NCBI GenBank assembly: GCA_965220275.1
Contig: CBDCPN010000019.1
Span: 89,036 to 153,035 of the forward strand
Length of the DNA: 64,000 nucleotides
Reading direction: 5' to 3'
From: Dehalococcoidia bacterium
Lineage (GTDB): Bacteria > Chloroflexota > Dehalococcoidia > Lucifugimonadales > Lucifugimonadaceae
Under the pieces are notes generated by a model. That model was given only the letters and a program-made list of their open reading frames with translations. It searched no databases and was not told the DNA's origin. Each line of letters starts with the position of its first letter. The first letter of the stretch is position 1. Shown here piece after piece: positions 4,438 to 44,125 of the stretch. A program made the translations under genes and the position numbers.

Positions 4438-4441
4438 TTCC

Positions 4442-22506: not shown

Positions 22507-25500
22507 ATGAAGATGGATGAACGGCTCGGTTCGCAGTCCGGCGAGCCCATCGCAATCGTGGGCATGGCGTGCAGGTTCCCGGGTGCGCCCGATGTAGACG
22601 CCTTCTGGCGCCTGCTTGAACGGGGTGAAAACGCGATTACCGAAGGCGTTCCCGGCTCAGGCGTCGGACGAATAGGTGAGTTTTACTCGGAGTCGGATAT
22701 TCAAAACGACGCCTCGCGGTTCGGGGCGTTCATCGATGGGATCGACCAATTTGATGCGGAGTTCTTCCGCATTTCGCCTGTCGAGGCTCAATTGCTGGAT
22801 CCTCAGCAGCGGCTGATGTTGGAAACGAGCTGGCAGGCCCTTGAGGACGCCGGTATTGACCCGGAGCGGCTGAAGGGTAGCCGCTCCGGGGTCTACATCG
22901 GCATCAGCAACATGGATTACCGCTTCATAAACATGGAATCCAGCCAGACCTCCGAGCCCGCCGCCAACCTCTACACGGTGAGCGGGACCTCCCTTAACAC
23001 CGCCGCCGGTCGGGTCGCCTTCGCCCTCGGACTTGAGGGTCCTGCAATGGCGGTGGACACCGCCTGTTCGTCCTCGCTGGTTGCGATCCACCAGTCCGTT
23101 TCGGCCCTGCAGCGGGGCGAGGCGAATCTGATCCTGGCCGGTGGGGTACAGGTAATTCTCTCCGGCCGGCTGACGGAGTTCCGCGCCAACGCCCGAATGT
23201 TATCGCCGGATGGCCAATGCAAGGCGTTCGACGCTTCAGCCAACGGTTTTGTTCGAGGCGAGGGCTGCGGCTTAGTGGTATTGAAGAGGCTCAGCGACGC
23301 GGAGGCTGACGGCGACCGAATCTGGAGCGTGATCCTTGGCTCCGCGCTCAACCAGGACGGGACCAGCACCGGACTCACGGTACCCAATGAACGGGCCCAG
23401 GCCGGCGTGATCGCCGACGCATTGGATCGCGCCGGTGTCGCTCCGTCTGAAGTGGACTACCTGGAAGCCCACGGCACGGGCACGGAGGTAGGCGACCCTA
23501 TCGAACTGAATGCCGCCGCGGCAGTGTACGGCGAAGGCAGGAATCCTGACCGCCCCCTGTTGGTCGGCTCCGTAAAAACGAATATCGGACACCTCGAGCC
23601 AACGGCCGGAGTCGCCGGTCTGATGAAGACTGTACTGTCGATTCAGAACCGGCAGATTCCCAAGCACCTGCACTTCCGGGACCCGAACCCGCGCCTGGAC
23701 TGGGACCGGCTGCCGGTAAAAATAGCCTCGGAACTGACCGAGTGGCCAGCCAGACCGGATCGTCCTCCGCGGGCGGGCATAAGCGCCTACGGGTGGTCGG
23801 GTACGAACGCCCACGTCATCGTCGAAGGTTACGGAGAGCCTGCCAACGGCTCCAACGCCGGTCGGGTTCCGTCGCGTCCCGTGGGCATCGCCCGAGCCGT
23901 TTCAGCCCCCCTGCAGGATTCGCCCAGCCGGGGAGAGTCGAATGGAGTCTGCATAGGAAGGCCTGCGAGGCTTCTACCTCTCTCGGCCAAGTCGAACGAA
24001 GCGCTGCAAGAGTTGTCGGGCCACTACCTTTCCTGGTTGGATGGGGGAACCGGAGAGTTCTCCCAAAACGGGTCTGTTGCGGGCCCGGACCTGGCAGACA
24101 TGGCCTGGACCGCAGGCGAAGGACGCAGCCACTTCGATTTCCGGGCCGGCGTGGTGTTCCGGGACATCGGTTCCCTGCGCGCCAACCTTGCTGAACTGGC
24201 GGCGTCGGATGATCCGCCGGAGATTCGCAAGGCATCGAAGGTGGCCTTTGCGTACACCGGCCAGGGCGTCCAGTGGCTGGGTATGGGAGAAGCCTTGTAC
24301 CAGTCCGAACCGGTGGCCCGCGCCGTGTTGGACCGTTGCGACCAGTTGATGCGTGAGGAGCGGGGAGCATCCCTGCTGGACGTGATGTTCGGCCGGCCCG
24401 AAGCGGCTGGCGATCTGGACGAACCGGCTTGGACACAACCGGCCGTATATGCCTTGGAATGTGCCCTTACCGCCCTATGGGCCAGCGTCGGAATCCGGCC
24501 GGACGTGGTGGTAGGCCACAGCCTTGGTGAAATCGCTGCGGCGCACACGGCAGGCGTGTTCTCCCTCGAAGACGGTCTACGGTTTGCCTGCACCCGTGGC
24601 GAATTGTTGGGATCTCTGCCGAGGGCCGGCGCCATGGCTGCGGTTTTCGCCCCGGCGAGCCGCGTATCTGAGGCAGTCGACGAATGGAATGAAGCCCACG
24701 CCGGCGCAGACATTTGTGTAGCCGTCGACAACGGTATGCACCAGGTGGTCAGTGGTCCCAAAGAGGAAGTCCACGCCTTTTCGGAGCATCTGGAGGCGTC
24801 CGCCGTAAACGTGACCCGCTTGCGGCCCAGCCCCGCCTACCACAGCCCGCTGGTAGAACCGGCTCTGGACGATTTGGAATCGTTTTTCTCTCACATCACG
24901 ATCAACCCCCCTGCCCTATCCCTGATCAGCAACATGACCGGCGGCGTCATGGGACCCGACGAAGCCCAGGATGGCCCCTACTGGCGACGCCACGCGCGTG
25001 AACCCGTGGCATTCCGCGATTGCGTGGCGACCCTGGCCGAATTGGGAGTGGACGCGGTAGTCGAGCTTGGCCCCCATCGCGTACTCGGCCCGCTTGTGTC
25101 CATGAACTGGCCGGAGGACGCAGGAAACGCCCAGCCCCCCGTCGTACTGCAAAGCCTTTTGCGCCCCTCCTTCGATGGGTCAGAACCCGAACGGGCCGAC
25201 GCCTTCGTACAGGCAGTGGCGGGCGCCTACGAAGCGGGCCTGCCCGTCTCCTTTGCCGGCCTGTTCGCCGGGGAGACCCGGCGACGGGTTGGTTTGCCGG
25301 GCTACCCGTTCCAGAGACGGCGGCACTGGGTAAAGCTGTCCGGGCGACGCCATCGCGCCGACGCCCATCCCCTGCTGGGTGTCCGGCACGAGTCACCGCG
25401 CGGTGAGATGATGTTCGAAACGGAGATGTCTCCTTTCGACCCGGACTGGCTTGACGATCATCGGGTTTACGGCCGGGTTGTCATGCCCGGCGCAGTCTAC

Positions 25501-28500
25501 GGCGCCATGGCAGCCTCGGTGTCCCTGGCCGACGGGACTGGTCCGGCGGTCGTCGAAGACTTGCAGTTGCACAACCCGCTGGTCTTCCCTGAGCAGGACG
25601 AAGAGAGCGAGTCTGACCCCCCAACACGACGGATGCAGTTAGTGCTGGATCCCTCCGAAAACAACCGACCACGCCATTTCGAAGTTTTCAGCAAAGGGGA
25701 GACTGAAGAGGCCTGGACCCTCCATGCGGAGGGAAGTTTGGCATCGAACGCGGCTAGATCGGGCAGTCAACAAGAGACTGACCTGGAAGCCTTGAAGGCA
25801 GGATTGCAACGGCAAGACCTGCGCGCCTACTACCAGGCCAAGGCGTCGACCGGTATCGACTTTGGCCCGCGTTTGCTTTCCCTGGAAGCCCTGTGGGGAC
25901 GCTCCGGCGAGGCGGTCGGCGATGTCGTCCTGCAGGACACCGGGGAAGGAATCGGGTCGTGGGTACACCCGTTGCTATTGGACGGCTGTTTCCAGGTACT
26001 TTCGGCGGCACGAGACCTGGCCGGCATGGGGTCAGGCGCAACCTACTTGCCTTTCGCCTGGGAGCGCCTGTCAGTGAACGGCCCGCTACCTGAGCGGTTG
26101 GTGTGCCATGCCCGAATGAGGGAAGTCGGTGGGGCAGCAGGCTCTGAACCCGCATCTTCTGAACAGCCGGAAACCCTGACCGGTGACCTGTGGTTCTACG
26201 ATTCAGAGGGAACTGCGCTTGGCGAATTGTCGGGGTTCATCGTAAAACGGGCGACGCGTGCTGCACTCCTATCCGCATCAGCGGGGTTGCAGGACATGCT
26301 CTACGAGACAGTCTGGCGGGAAAGCCCACTGCTAGACCGGTTGCAACCCGCCGACGCTCTTGCCGCACCGTCCACTGTCGCCACAGCCACCGGCACGTTT
26401 GGCGATTACCTTGCCCGCGAGGGAGTATCCCCGGAAGAGAGATCTGCTCTACTGGACGACCTCGAGCGGTTGTCTCGCGCCTACGCGCTCGCAGCCATGG
26501 ACCGGCTTGGCTGGGAGCGCCGACCGGGAGCGACTGTAGACCCTGAGTCACTGCGAGAACAGTTGAAGGTCCTCCCCGAACATTCAATATTGCTGGAGAG
26601 AATTCTGCGCCTGATGGCCGACGCGGGAATCCTGGACAGGGTCGGCGGAAATTACCTGGTCAAGATAGGCTCTGGAGACCCCCTGCCCGACAACACGCTG
26701 GCCGACCCCGATGCATTCAACGACCAGTTGACCGTGCAGCACCCCCACGGCTCCGTAGAGCTAGGGCTGTTGCGCAGAAGCGGAGGCGCGCTGGCCCCGG
26801 TGCTCCAGGGAGATACAGACCCCCTGTCCATCCTGTTCCCAAGGGAGGGGCCCGGCATTGCGGACTACTACTTCACCGCCCCAGCGTCTCGGGCTACAAA
26901 CCAGTTGCTGGGTGATGCCGTGGCTTCGGCCGTGGCCAACTGGCCGGAAGACCGGCCGTTGCGAATTCTGGAGGTGGGCGCCGGCACCGGGTCTGGTACT
27001 TCCGTAGTTTTGCCTGAACTGCAGCCCGGTAACTTCACTTACATGTTCACCGATATTTCGGCAGGGTTTTTCGCTGAAGCCGAGAACAGGTTTGGCGATT
27101 CGGAAGCCCCGCTGGAATACCGTGCCCTGGACATCGAGCGAAACCCCTGTGACCAGGGCTTTGATCTGCATGCCTATGACCTGGTTATCGCCGTCAATGT
27201 GCTGCATGCCACCCGAAACCTTGGAGAGACGCTGGCCAACTGCCGTGAGTTGATGGCGCCTTCGGGAAAGCTGATCGCGGTGGAAAACTTGCGGGGCCGG
27301 GGCTGGCAGGACATGGTGTTCGGGCAACTGGACGGCTGGTGGAGGTTCTCGGACGAATATCGCCCAGATCACGCACTCGCGTCGCCGCAGGTATGGCGGC
27401 GAGCCCTGGCCGATACCGGATTCGTGGAGTCGGCCGTCCTGGGAGGGGAGGCAGGGACAGACGAGAGGCCGATGGGGTCCGGAGTCGTCCTGGCCGAAGG
27501 GCCGCCTGAAGTCACGTGGCCGGCAGGGGCATGGGTGGTGGCCGGCGGCGGGGACAACGTTCCTGGAGAACTGGCGTCAGCCTTGGCGGACAAAAACCAG
27601 GCCGTAGTGCTGGCCGTCGCCGCAGCAGAAACCGGTAGAACTGCTGCCCCGGCGGGAATTCAGTGCGTGACAGTGGACCCGGACGACAGAAATTCCTGGC
27701 TCGACTTGTTGAATGGGCTGCCGGAGGACCTCCCACTGCGGGGCGTGGTGCATTGCTTCGCCACGGGAGGGCACGGAGTACAGGCTACTACGCAGGAAAT
27801 GGCGGAAGATGTCCGAACGGCCGGGCAGTCCGCCTTGACCCTTGCCCAGGCTTTGCAGGATGCAGACGTTTCGCTGGACAGTGGGTTTTGGTTGGTCACG
27901 GAAGGAGCGCAGGCACTGGAGCGGGACTACTTGCGCGAGAGTGCCGGCAATTTGGCCGGAGCCTCCCTGTGGGGACTGGGGAGGGTTGTGGCGCGGGAAG
28001 CAGCACATCTTTGTCCGCGGATGCTGGACCTGGACCCCGCGGATAAAACCCAGACAGATCACCTGGTCAATGAGCTGATGTTCCCCGACCCGGAAACTCA
28101 GGTAGCTTACCGGGACGGTCACCGCCTGGCAGCGCGCCTGGTCCGGAGTGGGTCGGCGAGAACAAGACTGGATTTGCCGGAAGAGCAAACCTGGCGCCTC
28201 ATGCCCGATGCAGAGGGAGCGTTGGAAGGACTGCACGCCGAACCAACGCAGCAACCGGACCTGCAGCCCGGGCAGGTGCGAGTGGAAGTGGAAGCAGCAG
28301 GCGTGAACTTCCTGGACGTGCTGCTCAGCCTCGGTGTCGTTGAATCGGCAGACCCTCGTCTGGGCGAAGAATTCTGCGGGCGGGTAGTGGAGGCGGCCCC
28401 GGACGTAACCGAGTTCGCCGCAGGCGACCGGGTGATCGGACTGGCCTTCGGCACATTTGGTCCAGAGGTCGTAACGCAGGCCGACCTGGTCGCGCCTGCC

Positions 28501-31500
28501 CCGGAGGGGATGTCGTCGGCAGCGCTGGCGACCATACCTTCGGCCTTCGTAAGCGCCGGGCTGAGTTTCGAAGAGGCTGACTTGAAACCCGGTGACCGCG
28601 TACTCATCCACACCGCCTCAGGCGGCGTGGGACTGGCTGCGGTCCAGTTGGCGCAGGCGGCAGGCCTCGAGGTATTCGCAACCGCAAGCGCCCCCAAGCG
28701 GCCATATCTCCGGTCATTGGGCATCGAGCACGTCTTCGATAGTCGAACAACCGGGTTCGGGCGGGAAATCCTGGAGGCCACCGGCGGCGTTGGCGTGAAC
28801 ATGGTGTTGAACAGCCTCACCGGTCCCGGGTTCATCGAGGACAGTCTGTCCTGCCTGGCTGACGGAGGCAGTTTCGTAGAGATGGGCAGGCGGGACATCT
28901 GGAACGCCGAGGAGATGGCAGCAGCGCGCCCCGATGTTTTCTATTACGTGCTGGAGTTGGATTGGCTAAAGAAAAATGACCCCGCCAGACCGGGATCCGT
29001 GCTGCGTGACGTGATGCAGATGATGACGTCAAGCGCATTGAAGCCGCTGGCACACACGCGATGGCCAATAGCCGAAGCCGGAGCCGCCATGGGGTTTATG
29101 CAATCGGCGAGGCACATCGGAAAGAACGTGCTCGTAATGCCGCCCGTCACCGGCGGTCAGTTGCGGCCTGATCGTACTTACCTGGTCACCGGAGGCATGG
29201 GGGGCATCGGCATCGAAGTGGCCAAGTGGCTCGCAGACCTCGGGGCCGGCGTGATAGTCCTGAATGGGCGCAGACCCCCGGACGATGAGGCCGAACAGGC
29301 CATAGAAGCCCTCAGGCAGCGCGGCGCCGACGTTCGGGTGGAGTTGGCCGACATGACCGACCCTGAAGCGGTTGATGCCATGTTGGCCCGCATTGATGCC
29401 GAAATGCCCGACATTGCCGGTGTCATCCACAGCGTGGGAGTGTTGTCAGACGCCGCGCTGGGCAACCAGACCTGGGAACGATTCGAACAGGTGTTGTGGC
29501 CCAAAATCCTGGGAGCGTGGCATCTGCACCGGGCCACCCTGGACCGCGATCTTGACCTGTTCGTCCTCTTCAGCAGCATTACCGGGGTTTTGGGTAACTC
29601 CGGTCAGGGCAACCACGCCGCGGCCAATACCTTCCTGGACCAACTTGCCGAGTACCGCAGATCTCTGGGACTTCCCGGCCAGGCGATAGCGTGGGGAGCC
29701 TGGTCAGGATTGGGTGAGGCCGAAGAACAGAGAGAAAGGATCGAACGGCAACTCGAATCATCGGGGACTGGCTGGATTAGTCCAAACCAGGGCCTCGACG
29801 CATTCGACCAGGTGGTCCGACGCGATCTGACCTCCTGCATGGTGGCGGCGGTGGATTGGCCGGTCTTCACCGAGAAATTTGAAGACGCCCCAAAATTCCT
29901 GGAAGACTTGATCACCAGCGGGTCGGAGTCTGAGGAGGACGACGCCGAGTCGTCCGGTCCGGTCGATCTGATGTCGGAGTTCAGGCAAAGCGCACCCGCG
30001 GACCGGCAAGGCGTGGTCGTTGCCTTCGTACAGCAGGAATTGCAGGCGGTGATGAGGATGCCGTCAGTACCTGCCCCGACGGTTGGTTTCTTCGAGTTGG
30101 GAATGGACTCATTGGTGGCGGTCGAGTTCCGCAACCGGTTGAACAGGTCCCTGGCGGGTGACTACGTAGTATCCAATACCGCTGTATTCGATTACCCGAC
30201 AGTCGACGACCTCGCACGCCATCTGTCGGAGGAACTCAACCAGGTGGCAGGGGACGAATCGCCTGAAGCAATCCAGGACAGTCCTGCCCGGGCGACCGTC
30301 CCGCCGGTAAGCCGCGATCCCCAGGAGGACGCCATAGCCATTGTGGGAATGGCCTGCCGCTTCCCCGGCGCGCCGGACCTTTCGGCTTATTGGGACCTGT
30401 TGGAAGCCGGGAGATCCGCAATAACGGACGGTAGACAGGACCGGGGGACCTGGGATGGCCTGACCGGAGACCCGGCCGCCAAGGACGCGGCTTACCGCAG
30501 GGGCGGTTTTGTCGAAGGGCTTGACCAATTTGACGCCAGGTTCTTCCGTATTGCGCCGATTGAAGCTCGAATGATGGACCCCCAGCAGCGGATGTTGCTG
30601 GAGACTAGTTGGCAAGCCCTGGAAGATGCCGCGATCAACCCGGACAGGCTTAGAGGCAGTCGCACCGGGGTCTATGCCGGGGTAGGCAGCGCCGAATACA
30701 GGGACCTCATTGCAGCAGGGGGACAGGAAGACAGTTACCTGGGAACGGCTGCAAGCGTGGCAGTGGGTCGAGTTGCCTTCGCCCTTGGCCTCGAGGGACC
30801 GGCTATGCCGGTGGATCTGGCATGCGCGTCATCCCTGGCCGCAGTGCACCAGGCGGCCGAGGCGCTTCGCCGGAGTGAAGTGGACCTGGCCATTGCCGGC
30901 GGCGTCAACGCGACTTTGTCGCAGGGGTTCACGAGGTTCCACAAGGACATAGGCATGTTGTCCGCCTCCGGACATTGCAACGCCTTCGACGCCGCTGCCG
31001 ACGGTTACATCCGGGGCGAAGGCTGTGGGGTAGTGGTCCTGAAACGGCTTGGCGATGCGGAAGCCGACGGCGACCGCATCTGGGGACTGATTAGAGGCTC
31101 AGCGGTCAACCAGAACGGCGCCAGCGCCGCGTTGACGGTGCCCAACGGCCCGGCCCAGGAACGGGTGATGGAGGCGGCCCGCACGCAGGCGGGCGTCAAC
31201 CCGTCCGATGTCGACTACCTGGAGGCGCACGCGGTGGGCTCGCAGTTGGGAGACCCTATTGAGCTTAATGCTGTCGCATCGGTTTACGGCAGAGAGCGCG
31301 ACAGTCAACGTCCACTTTTGATTGGAACGGTCAAGTCGAACATCGGACACGTTGAATGGGCGGCAGGAATAGCCGGTTTCATCAAGACCGTCCTCTCCAT
31401 GAAAAAGGGAGTGATTCCCGAGAGTCTGCACTTCAAAACCCCGAACCCAAACGTCAACTGGGAACAAGTACCGGTGAAAGTGACGTCCGGTCGAACAGTC

Positions 31501-32805
31501 TGGCCGACCGTCTCAGGTCGAGCGCCACTGGCTGGTGTAAACGCGTTTGGTCTTTCCGGAGCAAACGCGCACGTACTGGTCGAAGGCTATGGACCACCTG
31601 AGGCTGAGGCCGAAATGAGTAACGGCGCCCGTTTACCAATTGGTAGTCCACTGGCAATTCCGGCTTCACTCGCGGAATCGGTTAACGATGATTCCAGGTC
31701 CGCGGAAGGAATGGCGGCTCGTGCCACCCGTCTGTTGCCGCTATCGGGCAAGTCAGAAGGCGCGCTTCGTGATCTCGCGGGTAGGTACTTGTCATGGCTA
31801 GGAGGAAATTCAGAGGAATTGCGTCTTGAAGGCGCTGCTGCCGACTCGGCCCTTGCAGACATGGCCTGGACAGCCGGAGAGGGACGGAGTCATTTCGAAT
31901 TCCGGTCGGGCCTCGTGTTCCGTGATGCTGCCCATTTGCAAGCAAAACTGGAAGCCCTCGCTGAAGCCGTCAAACCCTCGCAGACGACGATTCAAACGGC
32001 CGCGAAAGTGGCTTTTCTCTACGGAGGCCAGGGCGGCCGGTGGAAGGAAACTGCAGAGACCCTGTACTTGGCGGAACCTGTGGTGCGCGAAGTATTGGAT
32101 CGTTGCGATCGACTGTCACGCGACGAGATGGACTTTTCCCTGCTGGAGGCAATGTTCGGCCAACCCGACGACTCCGGGATTCCTGCCGACCTGGCCTGGC
32201 AGGCGCCGGCCGTCTATGCGTTCGAATGCGCGCTCACTGAACTTTGGGCAGGAGTGGGGGTACGGCCCACAGTGGTTTTGGGCCGCGGTACCGGTGAGAT
32301 CGCGGCGGCACAGGCGGCCGGAGTCCTAACTCTGGAAGATGGGCTGCGGGTCGCGTTGCAAGTGGGCAGGCCCGAATCGTCACTACCGACGATAGACGCG
32401 TTGCCGCCGGCCCTCACGTGGGTCAGCAGCGCAACCGGGCGCGTATTGCAACCGGACGAAAAGCTGGACCAGGACCACTGGAGAAACCTAGCTCAGCCGA
32501 CACAGCACTTCAGCCAGTGCATCCAGACGTTGTCTGAGTTGCACGTGGACGCGATCGTGGAGGTCGGAACCCAGGGTCTCCGTTCAGACGTAACGCCCCC
32601 TCGACCGGAGTCTCGCGAAAACGGGCGAAAACCGGTCTTGATTGAATCCACGTTTGGCAACGGCTACGGAGGTTTCGTGAAAGCCGTGGGGGCAGCATAT
32701 GAAGCCGGACTGTCGATTTCTTTCAAGGGGTTATTCGCCGGTGAGACGCGGCGGCGAGTTTCGTTGCCTGCATATCCGTTCCAGCGAAAGCGGTTCTGGA
32801 TCTAG
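22507..32805 (+). CDS. Type I polyketide synthase, 3432 aa: KS-AT-DH-cMT-(psiKR)-ER-KR-ACP-KS-AT0. It has no C-terminal ACP or TE.
   Basis: All domain motifs were read from the translation. KS1: DTACSSS(C187), EAHGTGT(H322), NIGHLE(H362). AT1: GHSLGE(S672), AYHS. DH: HRVYGRVVMP(H985), DFGP, LLDGCFQ. cMT: ILEVGAGTGSGT. ER: HTASGGVGLAAVQLA. KR: TGGMGGIG, WPK, FSS, but NHAAAN. ACP: LGMDSL(S2535). KS2: DLACASS(C2773), EAHAVGS(H2908), NIGHVE(H2948). AT2 has GRGTGE in place of GHSxGE. Confidence 0.95.
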   Translation: MKMDERLGSQSGEPIAIVGMACRFPGAPDVDAFWRLLERGENAITEGVPGSGVGRIGEFYSESDIQNDASRFGAFIDGIDQFDAEFFRISPVEAQLLDPQQRLMLETSWQALEDAGIDPERLKGSRSGVYIGISNMDYRFINMESSQTSEPAANLYTVSGTSLNTAAGRVAFALGLEGPAMAVDTACSSSLVAIHQSVSALQRGEANLILAGGVQVILSGRLTEFRANARMLSPDGQCKAFDASANGFVRGEGCGLVVLKRLSDAEADGDRIWSVILGSALNQDGTSTGLTVPNERAQAGVIADALDRAGVAPSEVDYLEAHGTGTEVGDPIELNAAAAVYGEGRNPDRPLLVGSVKTNIGHLEPTAGVAGLMKTVLSIQNRQIPKHLHFRDPNPRLDWDRLPVKIASELTEWPARPDRPPRAGISAYGWSGTNAHVIVEGYGEPANGSNAGRVPSRPVGIARAVSAPLQDSPSRGESNGVCIGRPARLLPLSAKSNEALQELSGHYLSWLDGGTGEFSQNGSVAGPDLADMAWTAGEGRSHFDFRAGVVFRDIGSLRANLAELAASDDPPEIRKASKVAFAYTGQGVQWLGMGEALYQSEPVARAVLDRCDQLMREERGASLLDVMFGRPEAAGDLDEPAWTQPAVYALECALTALWASVGIRPDVVVGHSLGEIAAAHTAGVFSLEDGLRFACTRGELLGSLPRAGAMAAVFAPASRVSEAVDEWNEAHAGADICVAVDNGMHQVVSGPKEEVHAFSEHLEASAVNVTRLRPSPAYHSPLVEPALDDLESFFSHITINPPALSLISNMTGGVMGPDEAQDGPYWRRHAREPVAFRDCVATLAELGVDAVVELGPHRVLGPLVSMNWPEDAGNAQPPVVLQSLLRPSFDGSEPERADAFVQAVAGAYEAGLPVSFAGLFAGETRRRVGLPGYPFQRRRHWVKLSGRRHRADAHPLLGVRHESPRGEMMFETEMSPFDPDWLDDHRVYGRVVMPGAVYGAMAASVSLADGTGPAVVEDLQLHNPLVFPEQDEESESDPPTRRMQLVLDPSENNRPRHFEVFSKGETEEAWTLHAEGSLASNAARSGSQQETDLEALKAGLQRQDLRAYYQAKASTGIDFGPRLLSLEALWGRSGEAVGDVVLQDTGEGIGSWVHPLLLDGCFQVLSAARDLAGMGSGATYLPFAWERLSVNGPLPERLVCHARMREVGGAAGSEPASSEQPETLTGDLWFYDSEGTALGELSGFIVKRATRAALLSASAGLQDMLYETVWRESPLLDRLQPADALAAPSTVATATGTFGDYLAREGVSPEERSALLDDLERLSRAYALAAMDRLGWERRPGATVDPESLREQLKVLPEHSILLERILRLMADAGILDRVGGNYLVKIGSGDPLPDNTLADPDAFNDQLTVQHPHGSVELGLLRRSGGALAPVLQGDTDPLSILFPREGPGIADYYFTAPASRATNQLLGDAVASAVANWPEDRPLRILEVGAGTGSGTSVVLPELQPGNFTYMFTDISAGFFAEAENRFGDSEAPLEYRALDIERNPCDQGFDLHAYDLVIAVNVLHATRNLGETLANCRELMAPSGKLIAVENLRGRGWQDMVFGQLDGWWRFSDEYRPDHALASPQVWRRALADTGFVESAVLGGEAGTDERPMGSGVVLAEGPPEVTWPAGAWVVAGGGDNVPGELASALADKNQAVVLAVAAAETGRTAAPAGIQCVTVDPDDRNSWLDLLNGLPEDLPLRGVVHCFATGGHGVQATTQEMAEDVRTAGQSALTLAQALQDADVSLDSGFWLVTEGAQALERDYLRESAGNLAGASLWGLGRVVAREAAHLCPRMLDLDPADKTQTDHLVNELMFPDPETQVAYRDGHRLAARLVRSGSARTRLDLPEEQTWRLMPDAEGALEGLHAEPTQQPDLQPGQVRVEVEAAGVNFLDVLLSLGVVESADPRLGEEFCGRVVEAAPDVTEFAAGDRVIGLAFGTFGPEVVTQADLVAPAPEGMSSAALATIPSAFVSAGLSFEEADLKPGDRVLIHTASGGVGLAAVQLAQAAGLEVFATASAPKRPYLRSLGIEHVFDSRTTGFGREILEATGGVGVNMVLNSLTGPGFIEDSLSCLADGGSFVEMGRRDIWNAEEMAAARPDVFYYVLELDWLKKNDPARPGSVLRDVMQMMTSSALKPLAHTRWPIAEAGAAMGFMQSARHIGKNVLVMPPVTGGQLRPDRTYLVTGGMGGIGIEVAKWLADLGAGVIVLNGRRPPDDEAEQAIEALRQRGADVRVELADMTDPEAVDAMLARIDAEMPDIAGVIHSVGVLSDAALGNQTWERFEQVLWPKILGAWHLHRATLDRDLDLFVLFSSITGVLGNSGQGNHAAANTFLDQLAEYRRSLGLPGQAIAWGAWSGLGEAEEQRERIERQLESSGTGWISPNQGLDAFDQVVRRDLTSCMVAAVDWPVFTEKFEDAPKFLEDLITSGSESEEDDAESSGPVDLMSEFRQSAPADRQGVVVAFVQQELQAVMRMPSVPAPTVGFFELGMDSLVAVEFRNRLNRSLAGDYVVSNTAVFDYPTVDDLARHLSEELNQVAGDESPEAIQDSPARATVPPVSRDPQEDAIAIVGMACRFPGAPDLSAYWDLLEAGRSAITDGRQDRGTWDGLTGDPAAKDAAYRRGGFVEGLDQFDARFFRIAPIEARMMDPQQRMLLETSWQALEDAAINPDRLRGSRTGVYAGVGSAEYRDLIAAGGQEDSYLGTAASVAVGRVAFALGLEGPAMPVDLACASSLAAVHQAAEALRRSEVDLAIAGGVNATLSQGFTRFHKDIGMLSASGHCNAFDAAADGYIRGEGCGVVVLKRLGDAEADGDRIWGLIRGSAVNQNGASAALTVPNGPAQERVMEAARTQAGVNPSDVDYLEAHAVGSQLGDPIELNAVASVYGRERDSQRPLLIGTVKSNIGHVEWAAGIAGFIKTVLSMKKGVIPESLHFKTPNPNVNWEQVPVKVTSGRTVWPTVSGRAPLAGVNAFGLSGANAHVLVEGYGPPEAEAEMSNGARLPIGSPLAIPASLAESVNDDSRSAEGMAARATRLLPLSGKSEGALRDLAGRYLSWLGGNSEELRLEGAAADSALADMAWTAGEGRSHFEFRSGLVFRDAAHLQAKLEALAEAVKPSQTTIQTAAKVAFLYGGQGGRWKETAETLYLAEPVVREVLDRCDRLSRDEMDFSLLEAMFGQPDDSGIPADLAWQAPAVYAFECALTELWAGVGVRPTVVLGRGTGEIAAAQAAGVLTLEDGLRVALQVGRPESSLPTIDALPPALTWVSSATGRVLQPDEKLDQDHWRNLAQPTQHFSQCIQTLSELHVDAIVEVGTQGLRSDVTPPRPESRENGRKPVLIESTFGNGYGGFVKAVGAAYEAGLSISFKGLFAGETRRRVSLPAYPFQRKRFWI
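22543..23832 (+). other. PKS domain: ketosynthase 1 (Cys-His-His triad intact)
   Basis: Runs from EPIAIVGMACRFPG to NAHVIVEGY. The Cys codon is at 23065-23067. Confidence 0.9.
24238..25095 (+). other. PKS domain: acyltransferase 1 (active; GHSLGE suggests malonyl-type, but the specificity motif is the atypical AYHS)
   Basis: FAYTGQG, GHSLGE (Ser codon 24520-24522), AYHS and VELGPH. The post-AT linker YPFQRRRHW follows. Confidence 0.85.
25366..26275 (+). other. PKS domain: dehydratase (motifs intact)
   Basis: HPLLG, HxxxGxxxxP (His codon 25459-25461), a G.DFGP motif and LLDGCFQ. Confidence 0.85.
26848..27430 (+). other. PKS domain: C-methyltransferase (SAM-dependent)
   Basis: LRILEVGAGTGSGT (motif I), followed by DLVIAVNVLHAT and GKLIAVE. 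It sits between DH and ER, as in methylating highly reducing PKSs. Confidence 0.85.
28190..29141 (+). other. PKS domain: enoylreductase (MDR type, NADPH motif intact)
   Basis: GQVRVEVEAAGVNFLD and HTASGGVGLAAVQLAQAAG. Confidence 0.85.
29172..29715 (+). other. PKS domain: ketoreductase catalytic subdomain. Lys and Ser are present, but the catalytic Tyr position is His.
   Basis: TYLVTGGMGGIGIEVAKWL, LSD (B-type-like), WPK and FSS. GQGNHAAAN has codon CAC at 29614-29616, where canonical KRs have Y in the YAAAN motif. Confidence 0.8.
30004..30237 (+). other. PKS domain: integrated ACP
   Basis: FFELGMDSLVAVEFRNRL. The phosphopantetheine Ser codon is at 30109-30111. Confidence 0.88.
30328..31590 (+). 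other. PKS domain: ketosynthase 2 (Cys-His-His retained)
   Basis: Runs from DAIAIVGMACRFPG to NAHVLVEGYG. The Cys codon is at 30823-30825. Flanking linkers are near-duplicates of those around KS1. Confidence 0.88.
32005..32580 (+). other. PKS domain: degenerate, truncated acyltransferase (AT0)
   Basis: GRGTGE (32281-32298) aligns to GHSxGE, so the nucleophile Ser is replaced by Gly and the His by Arg. There is no xAxHS motif. The domain is about 95 aa shorter than AT1. The post-AT linker YPFQRKRFWI is retained as the protein C-terminus. Confidence 0.75.
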
Positions 32806-32911
32806 GTACGAGCCCCAACGTGAAGGCGTCGGCCGGTTACTTACCTGCACAATCGTTTGCTATGCTAGTCTTCGTTTACCAAAGCCAATCATAATCGGAG
32901 GATTTGCGCAC

Positions 32912-33142
32912 ATGGCCTCGACCGAAGAAAGAGTCCGAAAGCTCGTTAGTGACAACCTGGAAGTAGACTTGCCGTCGGATCTGAACGTCTCCCTTGGTGA
33001 CCTCGGTGTGTCATCCATGGACATCGTCTCATTCGGGAGAGTCGTAGCTAAAGATTTCGACATCTCATTCACTGCCGAGGACTGTGCCAACGTGAATACC
33101 GTTCAGGGTTTGGTAGAGCACATCGACGGTCAGGCTGCCTGA
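32912..33142 (+). CDS. Discrete acyl carrier protein (ACP-A)
   Basis: 76 aa with an LGVSSMD phosphopantetheine attachment motif. GGAGGA lies 9 nt upstream of the ATG at 32912. The ORF-track extension back to 32699 overlaps the end of the PKS gene and was discarded. Confidence 0.85.
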   Translation: MASTEERVRKLVSDNLEVDLPSDLNVSLGDLGVSSMDIVSFGRVVAKDFDISFTAEDCANVNTVQGLVEHIDGQAA

Positions 33143-33172: not shown

Positions 33173-33883
33173 GTGTCCGCAGACACCGCCGGGTGCTGGT
33201 GGAGCCCGTTCAGGACGGTTGGCAACGCCACCGTCATACATGTTGATCTGAACCGTCACGCCGCCCGTGAATCACAGGGCGTGGCGTGGTTGGACGACGA
33301 AGAAGTCTCCCGGTCGCGGCTTTTCAGGCATGCTGGCGCGCGGCGCCAGTTCGTGTTGTGCCGCGCCGCGCTGCGCGCCATACTCTGCGGCAAACTCGGC
33401 TGCAAAAACGACCGGCTCTCGTTCGGCCTAACCGGCCACGGCAAGCCTTTCGCCGTGGTCCGGGGGAGCAAGGCGCCGGTCAGTTTCAGTGTGAGTCACA
33501 GCGGCAAGCACGGGCTGATCGCTATTGCGCCGGGAGGGCGACTCGGCGTGGATGTCGAAGAGCCCGTCGCCCGTCGCGATTTGGACGGGCTGATTGCAAC
33601 TCTGTTTGGGCCCGATGAACGTGCGGAACTGGATGCGTTAAGCGGAGAAAGTAAACTCCGCCTGTTTTTGGATTACTGGACAATCAAAGAGGCTCTGATC
33701 AAGGCGCTGGGTACCGGCCACAGAGTGGACGTGTCCAAGTTCCAGGTACCTGCAAAAATGCGGGATCGGGACCCGATCGGCATTTTCCGGTTCTCGCACT
33801 TACCAGACGTTCCCTGGCGAGTAGAGAATCTCGGCAATGAAGACTTCGCCGCTGCACTTGCCGTTGAAGTAAAACCTGTATGA
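33173..33883 (+). CDS. Sfp-type 4'-phosphopantetheinyl transferase
   Basis: Motifs GKPF, FSVSHSG, GVDVE and WTIKEALIKALG. The start codon (GTG at 33173) is uncertain. Confidence 0.85.
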   Translation: MSADTAGCWWSPFRTVGNATVIHVDLNRHAARESQGVAWLDDEEVSRSRLFRHAGARRQFVLCRAALRAILCGKLGCKNDRLSFGLTGHGKPFAVVRGSKAPVSFSVSHSGKHGLIAIAPGGRLGVDVEEPVARRDLDGLIATLFGPDERAELDALSGESKLRLFLDYWTIKEALIKALGTGHRVDVSKFQVPAKMRDRDPIGIFRFSHLPDVPWRVENLGNEDFAAALAVEVKPV

Positions 33884-33899: not shown

Positions 33900-34856
33900 A
33901 TGAGTCGGCAGTCTCCTTCCCGCGTCGCAAGGAAGATCAGCAAATTCTCCATGTCTCTAGACCCCGCTTGGGAACTGCCCAAGCCTCTTTCCACGCATGA
34001 CGTTCAGGTGGACGACGACACCGTCATCGTCCTGAGGCGCCACGGCAATCCGGACGGCCCGCGACTCGTCATGAGCCACGGAAACGGCCTTGCGATCGAC
34101 CTCTATTACCCCTTCTGGTCCAGGTTGACCGGCGAATTCGACCTGATTGTCTACGACCAACGAAACCATGGCTGGAACGAACTGAGCATGCTCGAAAACC
34201 ACAACGTCCCCACCCTGGTCGCCGATCATGACGCCGTTCTCGAAGCAATAGACGACAAATACGGCCTGAAGCCTCAAGTTGGGGTTTTCCACTCTGTATC
34301 CGCCCTGGTGTCGCTCCTGTCGCCTGTTCGGGGAGTTCACTACTCTGCCCTCGTACTGTTCGACCCCCCTCTTTGCAAGCCCGGAAGAAGCCACAAGGAG
34401 TTCGAGGCCGCGGCCGTTCGCGCCGCGGGGTTCGCTCGCAACAGGACCGAGAAATTCCGAAGCAGGGAGCAGTTTTCTGACTTTCTTCCGTTCCTGCCTC
34501 CCTTCCAACGCTTTGCGCCCGGCGTCTTTGAACTCATGGCCGGTACGACGCTTCGTGAGCGCAACGGCGAACAAGGCTACGAACTGCGTTGCCCCGCCGC
34601 GTACGAAGCTCAGATGATCGACTACGCCAGCGTCTTCGGAGTGGCGGTGAACTTCGACACGCTGACGTGCCCGGTGAAGGTAATCGGAGCCGATCCCACC
34701 CTGCCCTATTCGTATCTACCTACGCTGGATATGACTGACATCCTGAGCGTGAACTACGATTTTCTGCCCGAAGCGACTCACTTTCTCCAACTCGAGAGGC
34801 CGGAAGCGTGCGCGGAGGTTATGCGGGAGTTCCTCAACCGGATCGAGTTCGGTTGA
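33900..34856 (+). CDS. Alpha/beta-fold hydrolase (candidate chain-release or acyl-transfer enzyme)
   Basis: An HGNG oxyanion-type motif early in the protein. The nucleophile-elbow region is VFHSVSA (atypical: Ser retained, flanking Gly residues not). The C-terminal EATHFLQLERPE is typical of the fold. Confidence 0.7.
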   Translation: MSRQSPSRVARKISKFSMSLDPAWELPKPLSTHDVQVDDDTVIVLRRHGNPDGPRLVMSHGNGLAIDLYYPFWSRLTGEFDLIVYDQRNHGWNELSMLENHNVPTLVADHDAVLEAIDDKYGLKPQVGVFHSVSALVSLLSPVRGVHYSALVLFDPPLCKPGRSHKEFEAAAVRAAGFARNRTEKFRSREQFSDFLPFLPPFQRFAPGVFELMAGTTLRERNGEQGYELRCPAAYEAQMIDYASVFGVAVNFDTLTCPVKVIGADPTLPYSYLPTLDMTDILSVNYDFLPEATHFLQLERPEACAEVMREFLNRIEFG

Positions 34857-36344: not shown

Positions 36345-36613
36345 ATACAGCGGCCCACCCTGCGGCCCGTGGTGAACCTCAGACCGCATCTTTGTATCGC
36401 GGAATACGTGCAGTCGTGCCGCCTTGCATCGCGAATGAACGAACACTCACACTCCCGTATACGCGGTGAAGCGGACGCGACGTTGACGCGCGACGACGGC
36501 GAACAGGCATACCCTGCGCGTTTCCCGAAATTCATCCACCCGTCAGTCAAAACTCCATAAGTTACAATTAATTCAGTTACGGCACGCGGGCTCGTTCCAC
36601 GCATTGAGACCGA

Positions 36614-42397: not shown

Positions 42398-44125
42398 ATG
42401 AACGAGTCAATTCGTTACGAGGCCGAAGAGGCGTGCCCGCCCATGGTGGCCCTGGGAGTCGGACTCCAGGGCGCAATATTCGGGCTCGCGCCACTCGTGC
42501 TCATCGTGGCGATTACCGCCCGGGCCGGAGGTCAAGACGAAAGTTACCTGTCGTGGGCGGTGTTCGCGGCGCTCATCATCGCCGGGTGCCTGACAGCGCT
42601 CCAGGCCAGCCGGATCTGGCGACTTGGAGCCGGGCACATCCTCATCATGGGGGCCACGCCCAATTTCGTCGCGATCTCCGTTCTGGCGTTGACGGCTGGG
42701 GGCCCTGCTTTGCTGTCGAGCCTCATAGTCGTGTCCTCGTTGGCGTATCTCGCGCTCGCATTATGGCTCCCGCTTCTGCGCCGAATCATCACCCCAGTTG
42801 TTTCCGGCACGGTGTTGATGCTGATCGCCGTTTCAGTCCTGCCGGTTGCGCTGGACAGAGTCCAGGAGACTGCCGAAGGCGCGCCCGCCGCCGCCGGCCC
42901 GGTTGTCGCTGCAGTAACGCTGGCGATGATCGTTGGTCTTGCGATGCGTGTCTCCGGGGCCTGGCGGCTCTGGTCGCCGATCATCGGGATTGGAGTCGGC
43001 TGCGTAGTGGCGGCGTTGTTCGGAGCGTATGAGATTCAACGGGTGATCGATGCGCCCTGGTTCGGGACGTCCGGAGCCGGGTTTGCCGGATTCGACCTTA
43101 CGCCCGACGCAAGTTTCTGGGCGCTCCTGCCGGTGTTCGTAGTTGTGATGCTTGTGGGAGGCATCAAGAACATCGGGGACAGCGTCGCGATCCAGCAGGC
43201 CTCGAGGCGCGCACCGAGGGTCACCGACTTTCGCCTGGTACAGAGTTCGCTCAAGACGAATTGGCTGGGCATACTGACGTCCGGCATTGCAGGGACTCCA
43301 CCTACAACCGTCTATTCCTCGTCCAGCGTGTCCCTCGCCAACCTGACCGGAGTCGCAGCGCGTAACGTCGGGTACGTCATCGGCGGCGTATTCATCCTGC
43401 TGGCGTTGTTCCCGAAACTGCCGGCGGTATTGTTGACCATACCCGCCCCCGTCATGGGAGCGTACATACTGATGGCGATCGGCCTGATCTTCGTTGAAGG
43501 CATACGGACGGTCGTCCAGGCCGGACTGGACGCCCAGAAGGTAATGGTGGTCGCTATTGCGTTCTCGTTGGGCGCAGGCATCGAGAATCAGACCATTTTT
43601 GCCGACCTTGTGGGAGGTACGTGGGGCGGACTGCTCGACAACGGCATGCTGGTTGGCGCCCTGGCCGCCATACTGATGACCGTCTTCCTGGACCTGACGA
43701 ACCCCCGCAAAGGAGGTCGCCTGCAGGTCAAGCTGGACGCGACCGCGCTACCCCAGATCGACAAATTCGTCCGTGATCATGCGGCCAGGCTCGGCTGGAA
43801 CCCGGCAGCCACCGAGCGGCTCAGTTCGGCCGCGGAGGAGACGCTCTTGACGCTGGTCCAGGCGGGAGAGGACCGCCCCGGCGATGATGCGCCAAGCCTG
43901 ATAGTCGTCACACGGCCCGACGCGGGACAGGTCGAGATGGAGTTCCTGGCCGTCTTTGACGAAGAAAACCTAGAGGACCGGCTGGCGTACTTGAGCGAAG
44001 AGACGGAGGGGGTGGAGGAGGGCGAAATTTCCCTCCGCCTGCTGCGGCACCACGCATCGTCCGTCCAACACCAGAAGTATTACGGCCTGGACATCGTCAC
44101 CGTGCAGGTCAAGGGCTCGCGTTAA
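42398..44125 (+). CDS. NCS2/SLC23-like (xanthine/uracil/vitamin C permease family) transporter with a soluble C-terminal extension of about 140 aa
   Basis: About 430 aa of polytopic membrane domain with NCS2-like organisation, followed by the hydrophilic tail RLQVKLDATALPQIDKFVRDHAARLGW...VTVQVKGSR. Confidence 0.65.
   Translation: MNESIRYEAEEACPPMVALGVGLQGAIFGLAPLVLIVAITARAGGQDESYLSWAVFAALIIAGCLTALQASRIWRLGAGHILIMGATPNFVAISVLALTAGGPALLSSLIVVSSLAYLALALWLPLLRRIITPVVSGTVLMLIAVSVLPVALDRVQETAEGAPAAAGPVVAAVTLAMIVGLAMRVSGAWRLWSPIIGIGVGCVVAALFGAYEIQRVIDAPWFGTSGAGFAGFDLTPDASFWALLPVFVVVMLVGGIKNIGDSVAIQQASRRAPRVTDFRLVQSSLKTNWLGILTSGIAGTPPTTVYSSSSVSLANLTGVAARNVGYVIGGVFILLALFPKLPAVLLTIPAPVMGAYILMAIGLIFVEGIRTVVQAGLDAQKVMVVAIAFSLGAGIENQTIFADLVGGTWGGLLDNGMLVGALAAILMTVFLDLTNPRKGGRLQVKLDATALPQIDKFVRDHAARLGWNPAATERLSSAAEETLLTLVQAGEDRPGDDAPSLIVVTRPDAGQVEMEFLAVFDEENLEDRLAYLSEETEGVEEGEISLRLLRHHASSVQHQKYYGLDIVTVQVKGSR

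What the first reader, a model, noticed from the sequence alone, without database searches (positions are those of the whole stretch)
22507..33142. PKS ends in a KS plus dead, truncated AT and has no ACP or TE; a discrete ACP follows
Module 1 is a complete methylating, fully reducing set, like iterative highly reducing PKSs or mycocerosic-acid-synthase-type enzymes. After ACP1 comes a second KS with an intact Cys-His-His triad, then an AT-like region. In that region GHSxG has become GRGTG (the nucleophile Ser is now Gly), the xAxHS motif is missing, and about 95 aa are absent.

The KS-AT interdomain linker and the post-AT linker of this second unit are near-copies of those in module 1. Examples are LLPLS.KS..AL..L.G.YLSWL, DMAWTAGEGRSHF.FR.G.VFRD and AYEAGL..SF.GLFAGETRRRV.LP.YPFQR.R.W. 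KS2-AT0 therefore arose by internal duplication followed by AT decay.

The protein stops right after the post-AT linker. The next gene is a 76-aa ACP, which is the obvious trans partner. AT1 presumably loads that ACP.

From memory, small methylating PKSs of similar composition (the Sup type) were described from sponge-symbiont metagenomes and linked to methyl-branched fatty acids. I cannot verify that similarity here.
Basis: partly seen in the sequence, partly recalled or inferred. Interest (0 to 1): 0.65.

Follow-up and report, generated by a model that had tools for sequence, protein, structure and literature searches.

The report
Sponge-symbiont SUP-type polyketide synthase cluster
This is a member of the long-known but still uncharacterised "Sup" family of small methylating polyketide synthases of sponge bacteria; its dead second acyltransferase and separate carrier protein are conserved family features kept by selection, not local decay.

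Summary
ORF 22507-32805 encodes KS-AT-DH-cMT-ER-KR-ACP-KS-AT0 and stops right after the post-AT linker. A 76-aa ACP gene follows, then a PPTase and an alpha/beta-hydrolase.

None of this is peculiar to the window. About 70 complete related loci in metagenome-assembled genomes (MAGs) from more than ten phyla, most apparently sponge symbionts, share the nine-domain order. They also share the Ser-to-Gly/Asp loss, the ~90-aa deletion in AT0, the stop, and a free-standing ACP, which lies on the opposite strand in about 20 loci. KS2 keeps Cys-His-Lys-His. AT0 is under purifying selection (dN/dS 0.20). The KS duplication predates the family's spread.

This fits the "sponge symbiont ubiquitous PKS" (Sup) cluster, whose product is still unknown.

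- The KR catalytic Tyr is His in 79 of 79 loci.
- The discrete ACP resembles type II FAS AcpP, not ACP1.
- A second ACP paralogue lies at 44365-44610.
- The cassette is a recombination mosaic.
- In this Dehalococcoidia lineage the cassette sits beside a sponge-symbiont GPP34-P450 / sterol-methyltransferase / Rieske module.

Verdict: new member of a known kind; moderate interest.

The parts
22507..32805 (+). SupA-like type I PKS, 3432 aa: KS1-AT1-DH-cMT-ER-KR-ACP1-KS2-AT0
22543..23826 (+). KS1 (Cys187, His322, His362)
24247..25206 (+). AT1, the only active acyltransferase: GHSLGE (Ser672), Arg697, AYHS (His779). The Leu after Ser is typical of malonyl-specific ATs.
25366..26268 (+). DH (HxxxGxxxxP, His985)
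26938..27423 (+). C-methyltransferase (SAM motif EVGAGTG at aa 1489)
28264..29133 (+). ER (GGVG at aa 2039)
29176..29706 (+). KR. The Rossmann motif GGMGGIG is intact. The catalytic Tyr is replaced by His2370 (nt 29614-29616, GQGNHAAAN), as in all 79 related loci scored.
30028..30225 (+). ACP1, in-line carrier domain (Ser2535)
30328..31611 (+). KS2, with intact Cys2773 (nt 30823-30825), His2908 and His2948
31726..32004 (+). KS-AT linker of the second unit (LLPLSGKS...DMAWTAGEGRSHF), conserved across the family
32005..32670 (+). AT0, a vestigial acyltransferase. Its motif is GRGTGE (Gly3261 at the Ser position, nt 32287-32289). Arg is replaced by Val. A 90-aa small-subdomain block that holds the His motif is deleted.
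32671..32805 (+). Post-AT linker (AYEAGL...SLPAYPFQRKRFWI) and TAG stop
32912..33142 (+). Free-standing ACP, 76 aa. Ser35 lies in GVSSMD (nt 33014-33016). It is AcpP-like and preceded by a GGAGG ribosome-binding site.
33173..33883 (+). Sfp/HetI-type phosphopantetheinyl transferase
33900..34856 (+). Alpha/beta-hydrolase (HGNG oxyanion motif, FHSVS nucleophile elbow, C-terminal His), the putative releasing enzyme
42398..44125 (+). NCS2-family permease, the SupE-type gene. It lies next to the PKS cassette in 44 of 81 loci.
44365..44610 (+). Second free-standing ACP paralogue, 58% identical to the first ACP

Best explanation
Identity. The locus is a Sup-type ('sponge symbiont ubiquitous PKS') cassette in a Dehalococcoidia sponge symbiont. 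It comprises a PKS, a free ACP, a PPTase, an alpha/beta-hydrolase and, further on, a permease.

Shown:
- Module 1 carries the only active acyltransferase, AT1, which is of malonyl type.
- The second unit is a catalytically competent-looking KS.
- The AT of that second unit has lost its nucleophile Ser, its His and its small subdomain. It is kept under selection together with the KS-AT and post-AT linkers.

Inferred mechanism:
1. Module 1 adds one or more C-methylated, reduced C2 units to an acyl chain held on ACP1.
2. The chain is passed to Cys2773 of KS2.
3. AT1 loads malonate in trans onto the free AcpP-like ACP, which the cluster's PPTase has activated.
4. KS2 performs one last decarboxylative condensation onto that ACP.
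5. AT0 serves only as the scaffold that holds the KS fold and dimer, and possibly as the docking face for the ACP.
6. The product on the free ACP is either released by the alpha/beta-hydrolase, or handed to type II fatty-acid enzymes so that the methyl branch ends up mid-chain.
For: - Domain content and active sites.
- The nine-domain order is conserved in about 70 complete loci.
- KS2 keeps Cys in 69/69, His in 66/69, Lys in 69/69 and His in 69/69.
- The AT0 Ser position is Gly in 57 loci, Asp in 9 and other residues in 3; the 12 'Ser' calls fit loci where only AT1 was in range.
- In homologues the protein ends right after YPFQRRRHW.
- ACP is found beside the PKS in 52 of 81 loci, PPTase in 34, hydrolase in 60 and permease in 44.
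- AT0 has omega 0.20 at dS 0.50, so it is selected rather than drifting.
- The AlphaFold model of AT0 matches PKS AT and KS-AT structures.
- Trans-AT KS domains keep the same post-AT motif without any AT, which shows the linker is needed by the KS.
- The free ACP resembles E. coli AcpP best (E 3e-7, full length) and is unrelated to ACP1.
- No other AT was found among the cluster genes scanned.
- Literature: sup clusters are ubiquitous in high-microbial-abundance sponges, proposed to make mid-chain-branched fatty acids, and occur in Chloroflexota among other phyla.
Against: - No biochemical data exist for any Sup PKS, and the product is unknown.
- The KR catalytic Tyr is His in every member, so 'fully reduced' is uncertain.
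- Helix II of the free ACP (SSMDIVSFGRVVAKDF) is much less acidic than that of AcpP, so recognition by housekeeping FAS II enzymes is doubtful.
- The KS2 motifs flanking the catalytic residues are relaxed (HGTGT becomes HG[ATV]GS).
- Reference SupA sequences could not be obtained, so family membership rests on architecture, gene content, distribution and one documented gene (SupE).
- The original papers could not be read.
Confidence: 0.55

Rival explanations
1. KS2 is a non-elongating transacylase or gatekeeper. It only moves the finished chain from ACP1 to the free AcpP-like ACP, or to the hydrolase, without a condensation. Any further elongation is done by the cell's type II FAS.
For: - The second unit has no reductive domains and no working AT.
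- The free ACP is AcpP-like.
- KS2 motifs around the catalytic residues are relaxed compared with KS1.
Against: Both His residues and the Lys needed for decarboxylative condensation are kept in 66-69 of 69 members. Non-elongating KS0 domains of trans-AT PKSs typically lose the first His (own knowledge).
Confidence: 0.2
2. KS2-AT0 and the free ACP act at the start rather than the end. The free ACP delivers a fatty-acyl starter from primary metabolism, and KS2 receives or primes it for module 1.
For: - The ACP is AcpP-like.
- No loading module, FAAL or starter AT is present.
- In some loci the ACP and hydrolase lie upstream of the PKS (L055 and L073).
Against: - KS2 sits C-terminal to ACP1, the canonical downstream position.
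- Nothing in the cluster would acylate the free ACP with a long chain.
- KS1 itself has a complete active site for priming.
Confidence: 0.1
3. In this lineage the Sup cassette works together with the neighbouring lipid-tailoring genes: the FAD amine-oxidase-like enzyme, GPP34-P450, sterol-type methyltransferase, Rieske KshA/SdmA-like oxygenase and SDR. Together they make a hybrid symbiosis lipid, for example an acylated or alkylated sterol-like lipid.
For: - The module lies between the hydrolase and the permease of the cassette in the window and in three related genomes.
- A Sup PKS also lies beside parts of this module in an Arenicellales MAG (L027, together with MMPL and LolA-like transport genes) and in L096, L110 and L114.
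Against: - Only about 8 of 80 loci of the P450 module have a Sup gene within 10 kb, and most Sup loci lack the module.
- The adjacency of ERG4/24 and of PhyH is not conserved.
- The region is a recombination and indel hotspot, so neighbourhood may be accidental.
Confidence: 0.1
4. KS2-AT0 is a decaying, functionless remnant, or the stop codon and separate ACP are assembly or sequencing artefacts.
For: AT0 has lost every catalytic element. Long-read MAGs do show frameshifted PKS genes, for example L001, which is split into 2847 + 531 aa.
Against: - The same stop position occurs in about 80 loci.
- The ACP is on the opposite strand in about 20 loci.
- A ribosome-binding site and a frame change precede the ACP.
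- Omega is 0.10 for KS2 and 0.20 for AT0.
- The KS2 catalytic residues are invariant.
Confidence: 0.02

Closest known systems
Sup ('sponge symbiont ubiquitous PKS') cluster, SupA-E, described from Theonella and Aplysina metagenomes (Fieseler et al. 2007; Hochmuth et al. 2010; cited in PMC4245539 and PMC3908369)
   Same: - A small methylating type I PKS with an FAS-like domain order.
- Accessory genes that include a permease (SupE).
- Very high allelic diversity.
- Occurrence in Chloroflexota, Proteobacteria, Acidobacteriota and other sponge symbionts.
   Different: Nothing contradictory was found. I could not read the original description, so I cannot say whether KS2-AT0, the His in the KR, or the AcpP-like nature of the ACP were reported there. 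The insertion of a GPP34-P450/SMT module between hydrolase and permease, and a second ACP, appear specific to this lineage.
Mycocerosic acid synthase (MAS) and MAS-like PKSs of mycobacteria
   Same: The best solved-structure match for the KR (9d2z, E 2.6e-48), and a strong match for the KS-AT. An iterative, FAS-like reducing module that makes methyl-branched acyl chains, with no TE and release in trans.
   Different: MAS takes its methyl branches from methylmalonyl-CoA and has no cMT. It has no second KS-AT0 and no dedicated free ACP, and its KR has the normal Tyr.
Fungal highly reducing PKSs (LovB/LovF type)
   Same: The same order KS-AT-DH-cMT-ER-KR-ACP. There is no TE, and release is by a separate alpha/beta-hydrolase (LovG; own knowledge). 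LovB is among the PDB matches.
   Different: They are eukaryotic, have no terminal KS-AT0, use no separate ACP, and are only distantly related in sequence.
KS domains of trans-AT PKSs with a vestigial AT linker
   Same: The KS keeps the KS-AT linker and the post-AT 'LPxYPFxxxxYW' motif although AT activity is supplied in trans. Chain 7zma aligns to the window's post-AT linker.
   Different: In trans-AT PKSs the AT core is gone altogether and a free-standing AT serves all modules. Here about two thirds of the AT core persist under selection, and the supplying AT is the cis AT of the preceding module.
Swf ('sponge widespread FAS') cluster, SwfA-C
   Same: A mono-modular PKS/FAS widespread in the same sponges.
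   Different: SwfA is KS-AT-DH-ER-KR-ACP, with no cMT and no second KS. It lacks the DPQQ motif that both KS domains here have, and its partners are a reductase/sulfotransferase and a radical SAM enzyme.

Membership tests
Sup (sponge symbiont ubiquitous PKS) cluster | One complete FAS-like module with a C-methyltransferase (KS-AT-DH-MT-ER-KR-ACP) in an unusually small PKS | tested here: met
   Pfam domains. The same order is found in about 70 related loci.
Sup (sponge symbiont ubiquitous PKS) cluster | Accessory genes next to the PKS, including the SupE permease | tested here: met
   ACP, PPTase, hydrolase and an NCS2 permease are present in the window and beside the PKS in 52, 34, 60 and 44 of 81 loci. 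SupE (ABE03914) is listed as a permease in PMC3908369. That SupB-D are ACP, PPTase and hydrolase is from memory only.
Sup (sponge symbiont ubiquitous PKS) cluster | Restricted to, and ubiquitous in, bacterial symbionts of high-microbial-abundance sponges, across many phyla | tested here: inconclusive
   All 80 genome hits are MAGs from 10 or more phyla, many with sponge-derived names (Palauibacter irciniicola, Spongiisociaceae, APA/COS/RHO/SB bins). The record titles do not state the host. The window itself carries GPP34-P450, which is reported as exclusive to sponge symbionts.
Sup (sponge symbiont ubiquitous PKS) cluster | KS falls in the Sup clade together with the published SupA sequences | not testable with these tools
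   No reference SupA sequence could be fetched. The permease search returned no Sup-named protein in the top 120, and the founding papers are not held.
Sup (sponge symbiont ubiquitous PKS) cluster | KS carries the DPQQR and HGTGT motifs targeted by the primers that recover sup amplicons | tested here: met
   KS1 has DPQQRLMLE and EAHGTGT. KS2 has DPQQR but HAVGS.
Active malonyl/methylmalonyl-CoA:ACP acyltransferase domain (for AT2) | GHSxG nucleophile Ser, the xAxHS His and the carboxylate-binding Arg | tested here: not met
   GRGTGE, Arg replaced by Val, and the His block deleted. No Ser appears in a shifted register in an alignment of 29 sequences. Across the family the position is Gly, Asp or another residue.
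Elongating ketosynthase (for KS2) | Cys-His-His triad plus the conserved Lys | tested here: met
   Cys2773, His2908 and His2948 are present. Conservation is 69/69, 66/69 and 69/69, with Lys in 69/69. Activity itself was not tested.
Canonical PKS/FAS ketoreductase (for the KR of module 1) | Catalytic Lys-Ser-Tyr, with the Tyr in GQxNYAAAN | tested here: not met
   His2370 aligns with the catalytic Tyr of MAS and of the AmphB KR. It is His in 79 of 79 loci. Lys, Ser and the NADPH motif are present.
Swf cluster | SwfA is KS-AT-DH-ER-KR-ACP without MT; the KS lacks DPQQ; SwfB (reductase/sulfotransferase) and SwfC (radical SAM) are the neighbours | tested here: not met
   A cMT is present, DPQQR is present in both KS domains, and no SwfB- or SwfC-like genes are found.

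The most novel reading that the evidence does not exclude
Sup synthases may not be ordinary 'fully reducing' FAS-like enzymes. The invariant Tyr-to-His change in the KR would mean either a new catalytic variant of the PKS ketoreductase or a non-reducing role. KS2-AT0 plus the AcpP-like free ACP would then be a dedicated hand-off device that couples a type I methylating module to type II fatty-acid synthesis. In this lineage that could feed a symbiosis-specific lipid pathway encoded by the adjacent GPP34-P450/SMT/Rieske module.
Probability: 0.2. Interest if true: 0.65.

Novelty: new member of a known kind. Interest (0 to 1): 0.4.

Why it matters
Sup genes are reported to dominate the PKS gene pool of high-microbial-abundance sponges, yet their product and mechanism have not been established since their description in 2007.

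This analysis shows three family-wide traits that are under selection: the terminal KS, the vestigial AT and the free AcpP-like ACP. It also shows that the KR carries His where every characterised PKS/FAS KR I know of has Tyr. Together these give concrete experiments:
- trans-loading of the free ACP by AT1;
- condensation by KS2;
- KR H2370Y mutagenesis.

AT0 is also a natural intermediate on the path from cis-AT to AT-less KS domains.

The side observations bear on how sponge symbionts build their unusual lipids:
- domain-level recombination among sup alleles at a single chromosomal site;
- a conserved GPP34-P450 / sterol-methyltransferase / Rieske gene set.

The second point also bears on a published proposal that GPP34 proteins are secreted phagocytosis modulators.

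Tried and rejected
Searches and look-ups that led nowhere:
- The homologue search with the whole 3432-aa protein timed out, so I used the last 332 aa instead.
- Exact look-ups of three window proteins found no contig, so the sample of origin stays unknown.
- Fieseler 2007 and Siegl 2011 could not be read.
- Several literature searches for the published SupA architecture, or for functional work on it, found nothing.
- The supplement of the Swf paper held no usable SupA sequence.
- The permease search gave no Sup-named hit.
- The hydrolase has no sequence relative in the PDB.

Ideas tested and rejected:
- Recent, gene-specific duplication of KS-AT: rejected.
- AT0 as a drifting pseudo-domain: rejected.
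- The free ACP as a split-off copy of ACP1: rejected.
- A Ser in a shifted register in AT0: not seen.
- Conserved linkage of the PKS with PhyH or with ERG4/ERG24: rejected. Only 3 of 79 PhyH loci have the PKS, all from one lineage. ERG4/24 is replaced by a helicase in one relative and by other genes in another.
- The P450 as a true CYP51 and the Rieske protein as a true SdmA: only distant matches.
Full report
**1. The observation**

The window holds one 3432-aa ORF at 22507..32805 (+). Pfam finds, in order:
- KS (aa 13-390)
- AT (581-860)
- DH (954-1254)
- methyltransferase (1478-1639)
- ER (1920-2209)
- KR (2224-2400)
- PP-binding (2508-2573)
- a second KS, KS-AT linker and AT-like stretch

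A self-comparison aligns aa 2608-3432 with aa 13-942 at 54% identity.

- KS2 keeps Cys2773, His2908 and His2948.
- In the second AT, GHSLGE has become GRGTGE.
- The carboxylate-binding Arg is Val.
- A single 90-aa block is missing. It corresponds to the small subdomain and holds the AYHS histidine.

The protein ends ...SLPAYPFQRKRFWI with TAG at 32803-32805. After 106 nt there is a GGAGG ribosome-binding site and an ATG at 32912 in another reading frame. This opens a 76-aa ACP (PP-binding E 9e-10). There is no TE domain.

**2. It is a family trait, not a local accident**

A search with the last 332 aa gave 198 proteins. In the best 120, most carry G-x-G-x-GE at the nucleophile elbow, share the deletion, and end within a few residues of YPFQRRRHW.

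A scan of one genome per species found 327 relatives, of which 80 loci were fetched. All are MAGs. The phyla and classes include Latescibacterota, Dehalococcoidia/SAR202, Alpha- and Gammaproteobacteria, Gemmatimonadota (Palauibacter), Nitrospirales, Acidobacteriota, Binatia, Dadabacteria, Nitrospinota, Rhodothermales and Acidimicrobiia.

About 70 loci that are complete show the same nine domains in the same order. Across these loci:
- The KS2 Cys, Lys and second His are invariant, and the first His is present in 66 of 69.
- The AT0 'Ser' position is Gly in 57, Asp in 9 and other residues in 3. The 12 Ser calls fit loci where only AT1 was in range.
- The PKS always stops 0-12 codons after the post-AT motif.

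The ACP is always a separate gene. It lies just downstream on the same strand in about 30 loci, on the opposite strand in about 20, and upstream in a few. That excludes an assembly artefact or a broken fusion.

ACP, PPTase, alpha/beta-hydrolase and an NCS2 permease accompany the PKS in 52, 34, 60 and 44 of 81 loci (example L001).

**3. Age of the duplication and selection on AT0**

In an alignment of 69 KS1 and 69 KS2 domains, every sequence's nearest neighbour is of its own class (0 of 138 exceptions). KS1-KS2 identity is the same within a protein as between proteins, with a median of 58%. The duplication therefore predates the spread of the family. The near-identical linkers reflect constraint, not recency.

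Between two genomes that share the same AT0 allele, dN/dS for linker plus AT0 is 0.20 at dS 0.50. In the comparison of the window with its closest relative, the values are 0.08 for AT1, 0.10 for KS2 and 0.05 for KS1. AT0 is relaxed but clearly maintained.

An AlphaFold model built from 25 family members (mean pLDDT 72.5) matches PKS AT and KS-AT structures such as CurL and DEBS.

Trans-AT PKS KS domains retain the same post-AT 'SLPxYPFxxxxYW' segment with no AT at all (7zma). This fits a structural role: the linkers and what is left of the AT hold the KS.

**4.

(a) *The KR.* The catalytic Tyr of the universal GQxNYAAAN motif is His (GQGNHAAAN, His2370). Alignment to mycocerosic acid synthase and to the AmphB KR puts this His exactly on their catalytic Tyr. 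All 79 related loci have His. The KR is nevertheless the best-conserved domain (63-82% identity; omega 0.08). Its NADPH motif, Lys and Ser are intact. Either His acts as the general acid or module 1 is not a standard reducing module. I have no explanation beyond that.

(b) *The free ACP.* It shows no significant similarity to ACP1 (E 0.29). Its best solved relatives are E. coli AcpP and other type II FAS ACPs over the full length (E 3e-7). Its helix II is much less acidic than that of AcpP.

(c) *A second ACP.* A paralogue 58% identical to the first, with a similar leader, lies at 44365-44610 after the permease. It is conserved there in the three closest genomes.

**5. Identity and taxon**

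The closest genomes are Dehalococcoidia MAGs (L082/L162, L009/L083/L163, L084/L164). Their flanking genes are 85-92% identical in DNA to the window.

The window also encodes a GPP34-P450 fusion. A 2025 study reports that architecture as exclusive to sponge-symbiotic bacteria.

The literature describes sup genes as follows:
- they are the dominant, extremely diverse, small mono-modular PKS genes of high-microbial-abundance sponges;
- they are proposed to make mid-chain-branched fatty acids;
- they are found in MAGs of Chloroflexota, Proteobacteria, Acidobacteriota and Spirochaetota;
- they include a permease, SupE.

Architecture, accessory genes and distribution fit. A tree with reference SupA sequences could not be made. 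I recall, but could not verify, that SupB-D are ACP, PPTase and hydrolase.

**6. How it most likely works**

*Shown:*
- There is one active AT, and its GHSLG motif is of malonyl type.
- There is an intact SAM motif.
- There are two KS domains with complete active sites.
- There are two carrier proteins of different kinds, a dedicated Sfp/HetI-type PPTase, and a hydrolase with plausible Ser/His elements.

*Inferred:*
- Module 1 builds or extends a C-methylated chain on ACP1.
- KS2 takes the chain over.
- AT1 loads malonate in trans on the free ACP.
- KS2 condenses once more.
- The hydrolase releases the product, or type II FAS enzymes continue, which would place the methyl branch mid-chain.

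I put about 0.85 on the identification as a Sup-type cassette with a selected, dead AT. I put about 0.45 on the specific last-condensation mechanism.

*Rivals:*
- KS2 acts as a pure transacylase (0.2).
- The second unit has a priming role (0.1).
- The cassette is functionally coupled to the neighbouring lipid-tailoring module (0.1; not exclusive of the best explanation).
- It is a decaying remnant or an artefact (0.02).

**7. Surroundings**

In this lineage five genes lie between the hydrolase and the permease:
- an FAD amine-oxidase-like protein (34917-36344);
- GPP34-P450 (36614-38668);
- a sterol-type methyltransferase with the Sterol_MT_C domain (38712-39749, minus strand);
- a Rieske KshA/SdmA-like oxygenase (39990-41063, minus strand);
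- an SDR (41429-42271).

An ERG4/ERG24-family reductase (19631-20779) and a PhyH dioxygenase (21205-22191, minus strand) lie upstream.

The P450 matches CYP51 only distantly. The Rieske protein matches SdmA only distantly.

The P450 fusion has 498 relatives in the genome collection, at 70-92% protein identity across phyla. In 80 fetched loci it is flanked by the methyltransferase in 55, the Rieske gene in 68 and the amine-oxidase-like gene in 36. A Sup gene lies within 10 kb in only about 8 of them.

An Arenicellales MAG (L027) has the module beside its Sup PKS, together with MMPL and LolA-like genes.

The linkage is recurrent but weak. ERG4/24 and PhyH are not conserved neighbours.

**8. Mosaic structure**

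At this one syntenic site the cassette has been exchanged in blocks.

| Region | Window coordinates | Similar pairs | Dissimilar |
|---|---|---|---|
| KS1 to KS2 | 22.5-31.55 kb | window and L082/L162, about 88-90% DNA identity; L083 and L084, 80-85% | the two pairs against each other, 55-70% |
| Linker-AT0-ACP-PPTase | 31.59-33.79 kb | L082 and L083, 81-86% | the window against all three, 45-58% |
| Flanks | from 33.8 kb on, and PhyH upstream | 85-92% with L082/L083, about 80% with L084 | none |

The breakpoints sit at:
- the PhyH-PKS intergenic region;
- the KS2/linker boundary;
- about 90 nt before the PPTase stop.

Other relatives show further domain-level mosaicism. L060, for example, is 85% identical in KS1, 60% in DH, 81% in ER and 41% in AT0.

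**9. Verdict**

The finding is real and the reading is largely right. It describes a member of a known, uncharacterised family rather than something new. Its value lies in the family-wide features documented here, which make the old question of what Sup synthases do directly testable.

Noticed in passing
window 29614-29616 (KR domain 29176-29706): The catalytic Tyr of the PKS/FAS ketoreductase motif GQxNYAAAN is His (GQGNHAAAN). It aligns with the catalytic Tyr of mycocerosic acid synthase and of the AmphB KR, and is His in all 79 related loci. The KR is otherwise the best-conserved domain.
   Followed up: partly
window 44365-44610 (+): A second free-standing ACP, 58% identical to the ACP at 32912-33142 and with a similar 5' leader. 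It lies directly after the permease and is conserved at that place in the three closest Dehalococcoidia genomes.
   Followed up: partly
window 22200-22500, about 31590 and about 33790; loci L082/L162, L083/L163 (=L009), L084/L164: The sup cassette has been exchanged in blocks at one syntenic site. KS1 to KS2 is about 88-90% identical to L082/L162 but 55-70% to L083 and L084. Linker-AT0-ACP-PPTase is unlike all three (45-58%), while L082 and L083 share it (81-86%). Flanks are 85-92% identical to L082/L083 and about 80% to L084. Other loci show domain-level mosaics.
   Followed up: yes
window 34917-42271; loci L082-L161: The GPP34-P450 fusion (reported as exclusive to sponge symbionts and proposed as a phagocytosis modulator) sits in a conserved gene set. 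A sterol-type methyltransferase accompanies it in 55 of 80 loci, a Rieske KshA/SdmA-like oxygenase in 68 and an FAD amine-oxidase-like protein in 36. Identity is 70-92% across phyla. This points to a lipid- or sterol-tailoring role. The paper on GPP34 does not mention a methyltransferase.
   Followed up: partly
L027 11277-20615 (Arenicellales MAG): In L027 the Sup PKS is followed by LolA-like, amine-oxidase-like, MMPL transporter, GPP34-P450 and Rieske genes. No ACP, PPTase or hydrolase was detected nearby. The arrangement suggests an exported envelope lipid.
   Followed up: no
window 19631-20779 (+): An ERG4/ERG24-family sterol reductase homologue lies upstream of the PKS. At the same place a close relative (L163) has a 1292-aa helicase and another relative (L162) has unrelated genes, so this is a variable spot.
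   Followed up: yes
L034 and L073: Two related PKS loci gave no match to the methyltransferase domain (order KS-AT-DH-ER-KR-ACP...). Non-methylating variants of the family may therefore exist. Frameshifts or assembly gaps were not excluded.
   Followed up: no
window 8609-9919 and 54141-55193; 18034-19131 and 49767-50885: Two phosphotriesterase-family genes and two mandelate racemase/enolase-family genes lie in the window. There are also a ThuA-like gene, a scramblase-family gene (53197-53850) and a peptide ABC transporter (331-6528). None was looked at further.
   Followed up: no
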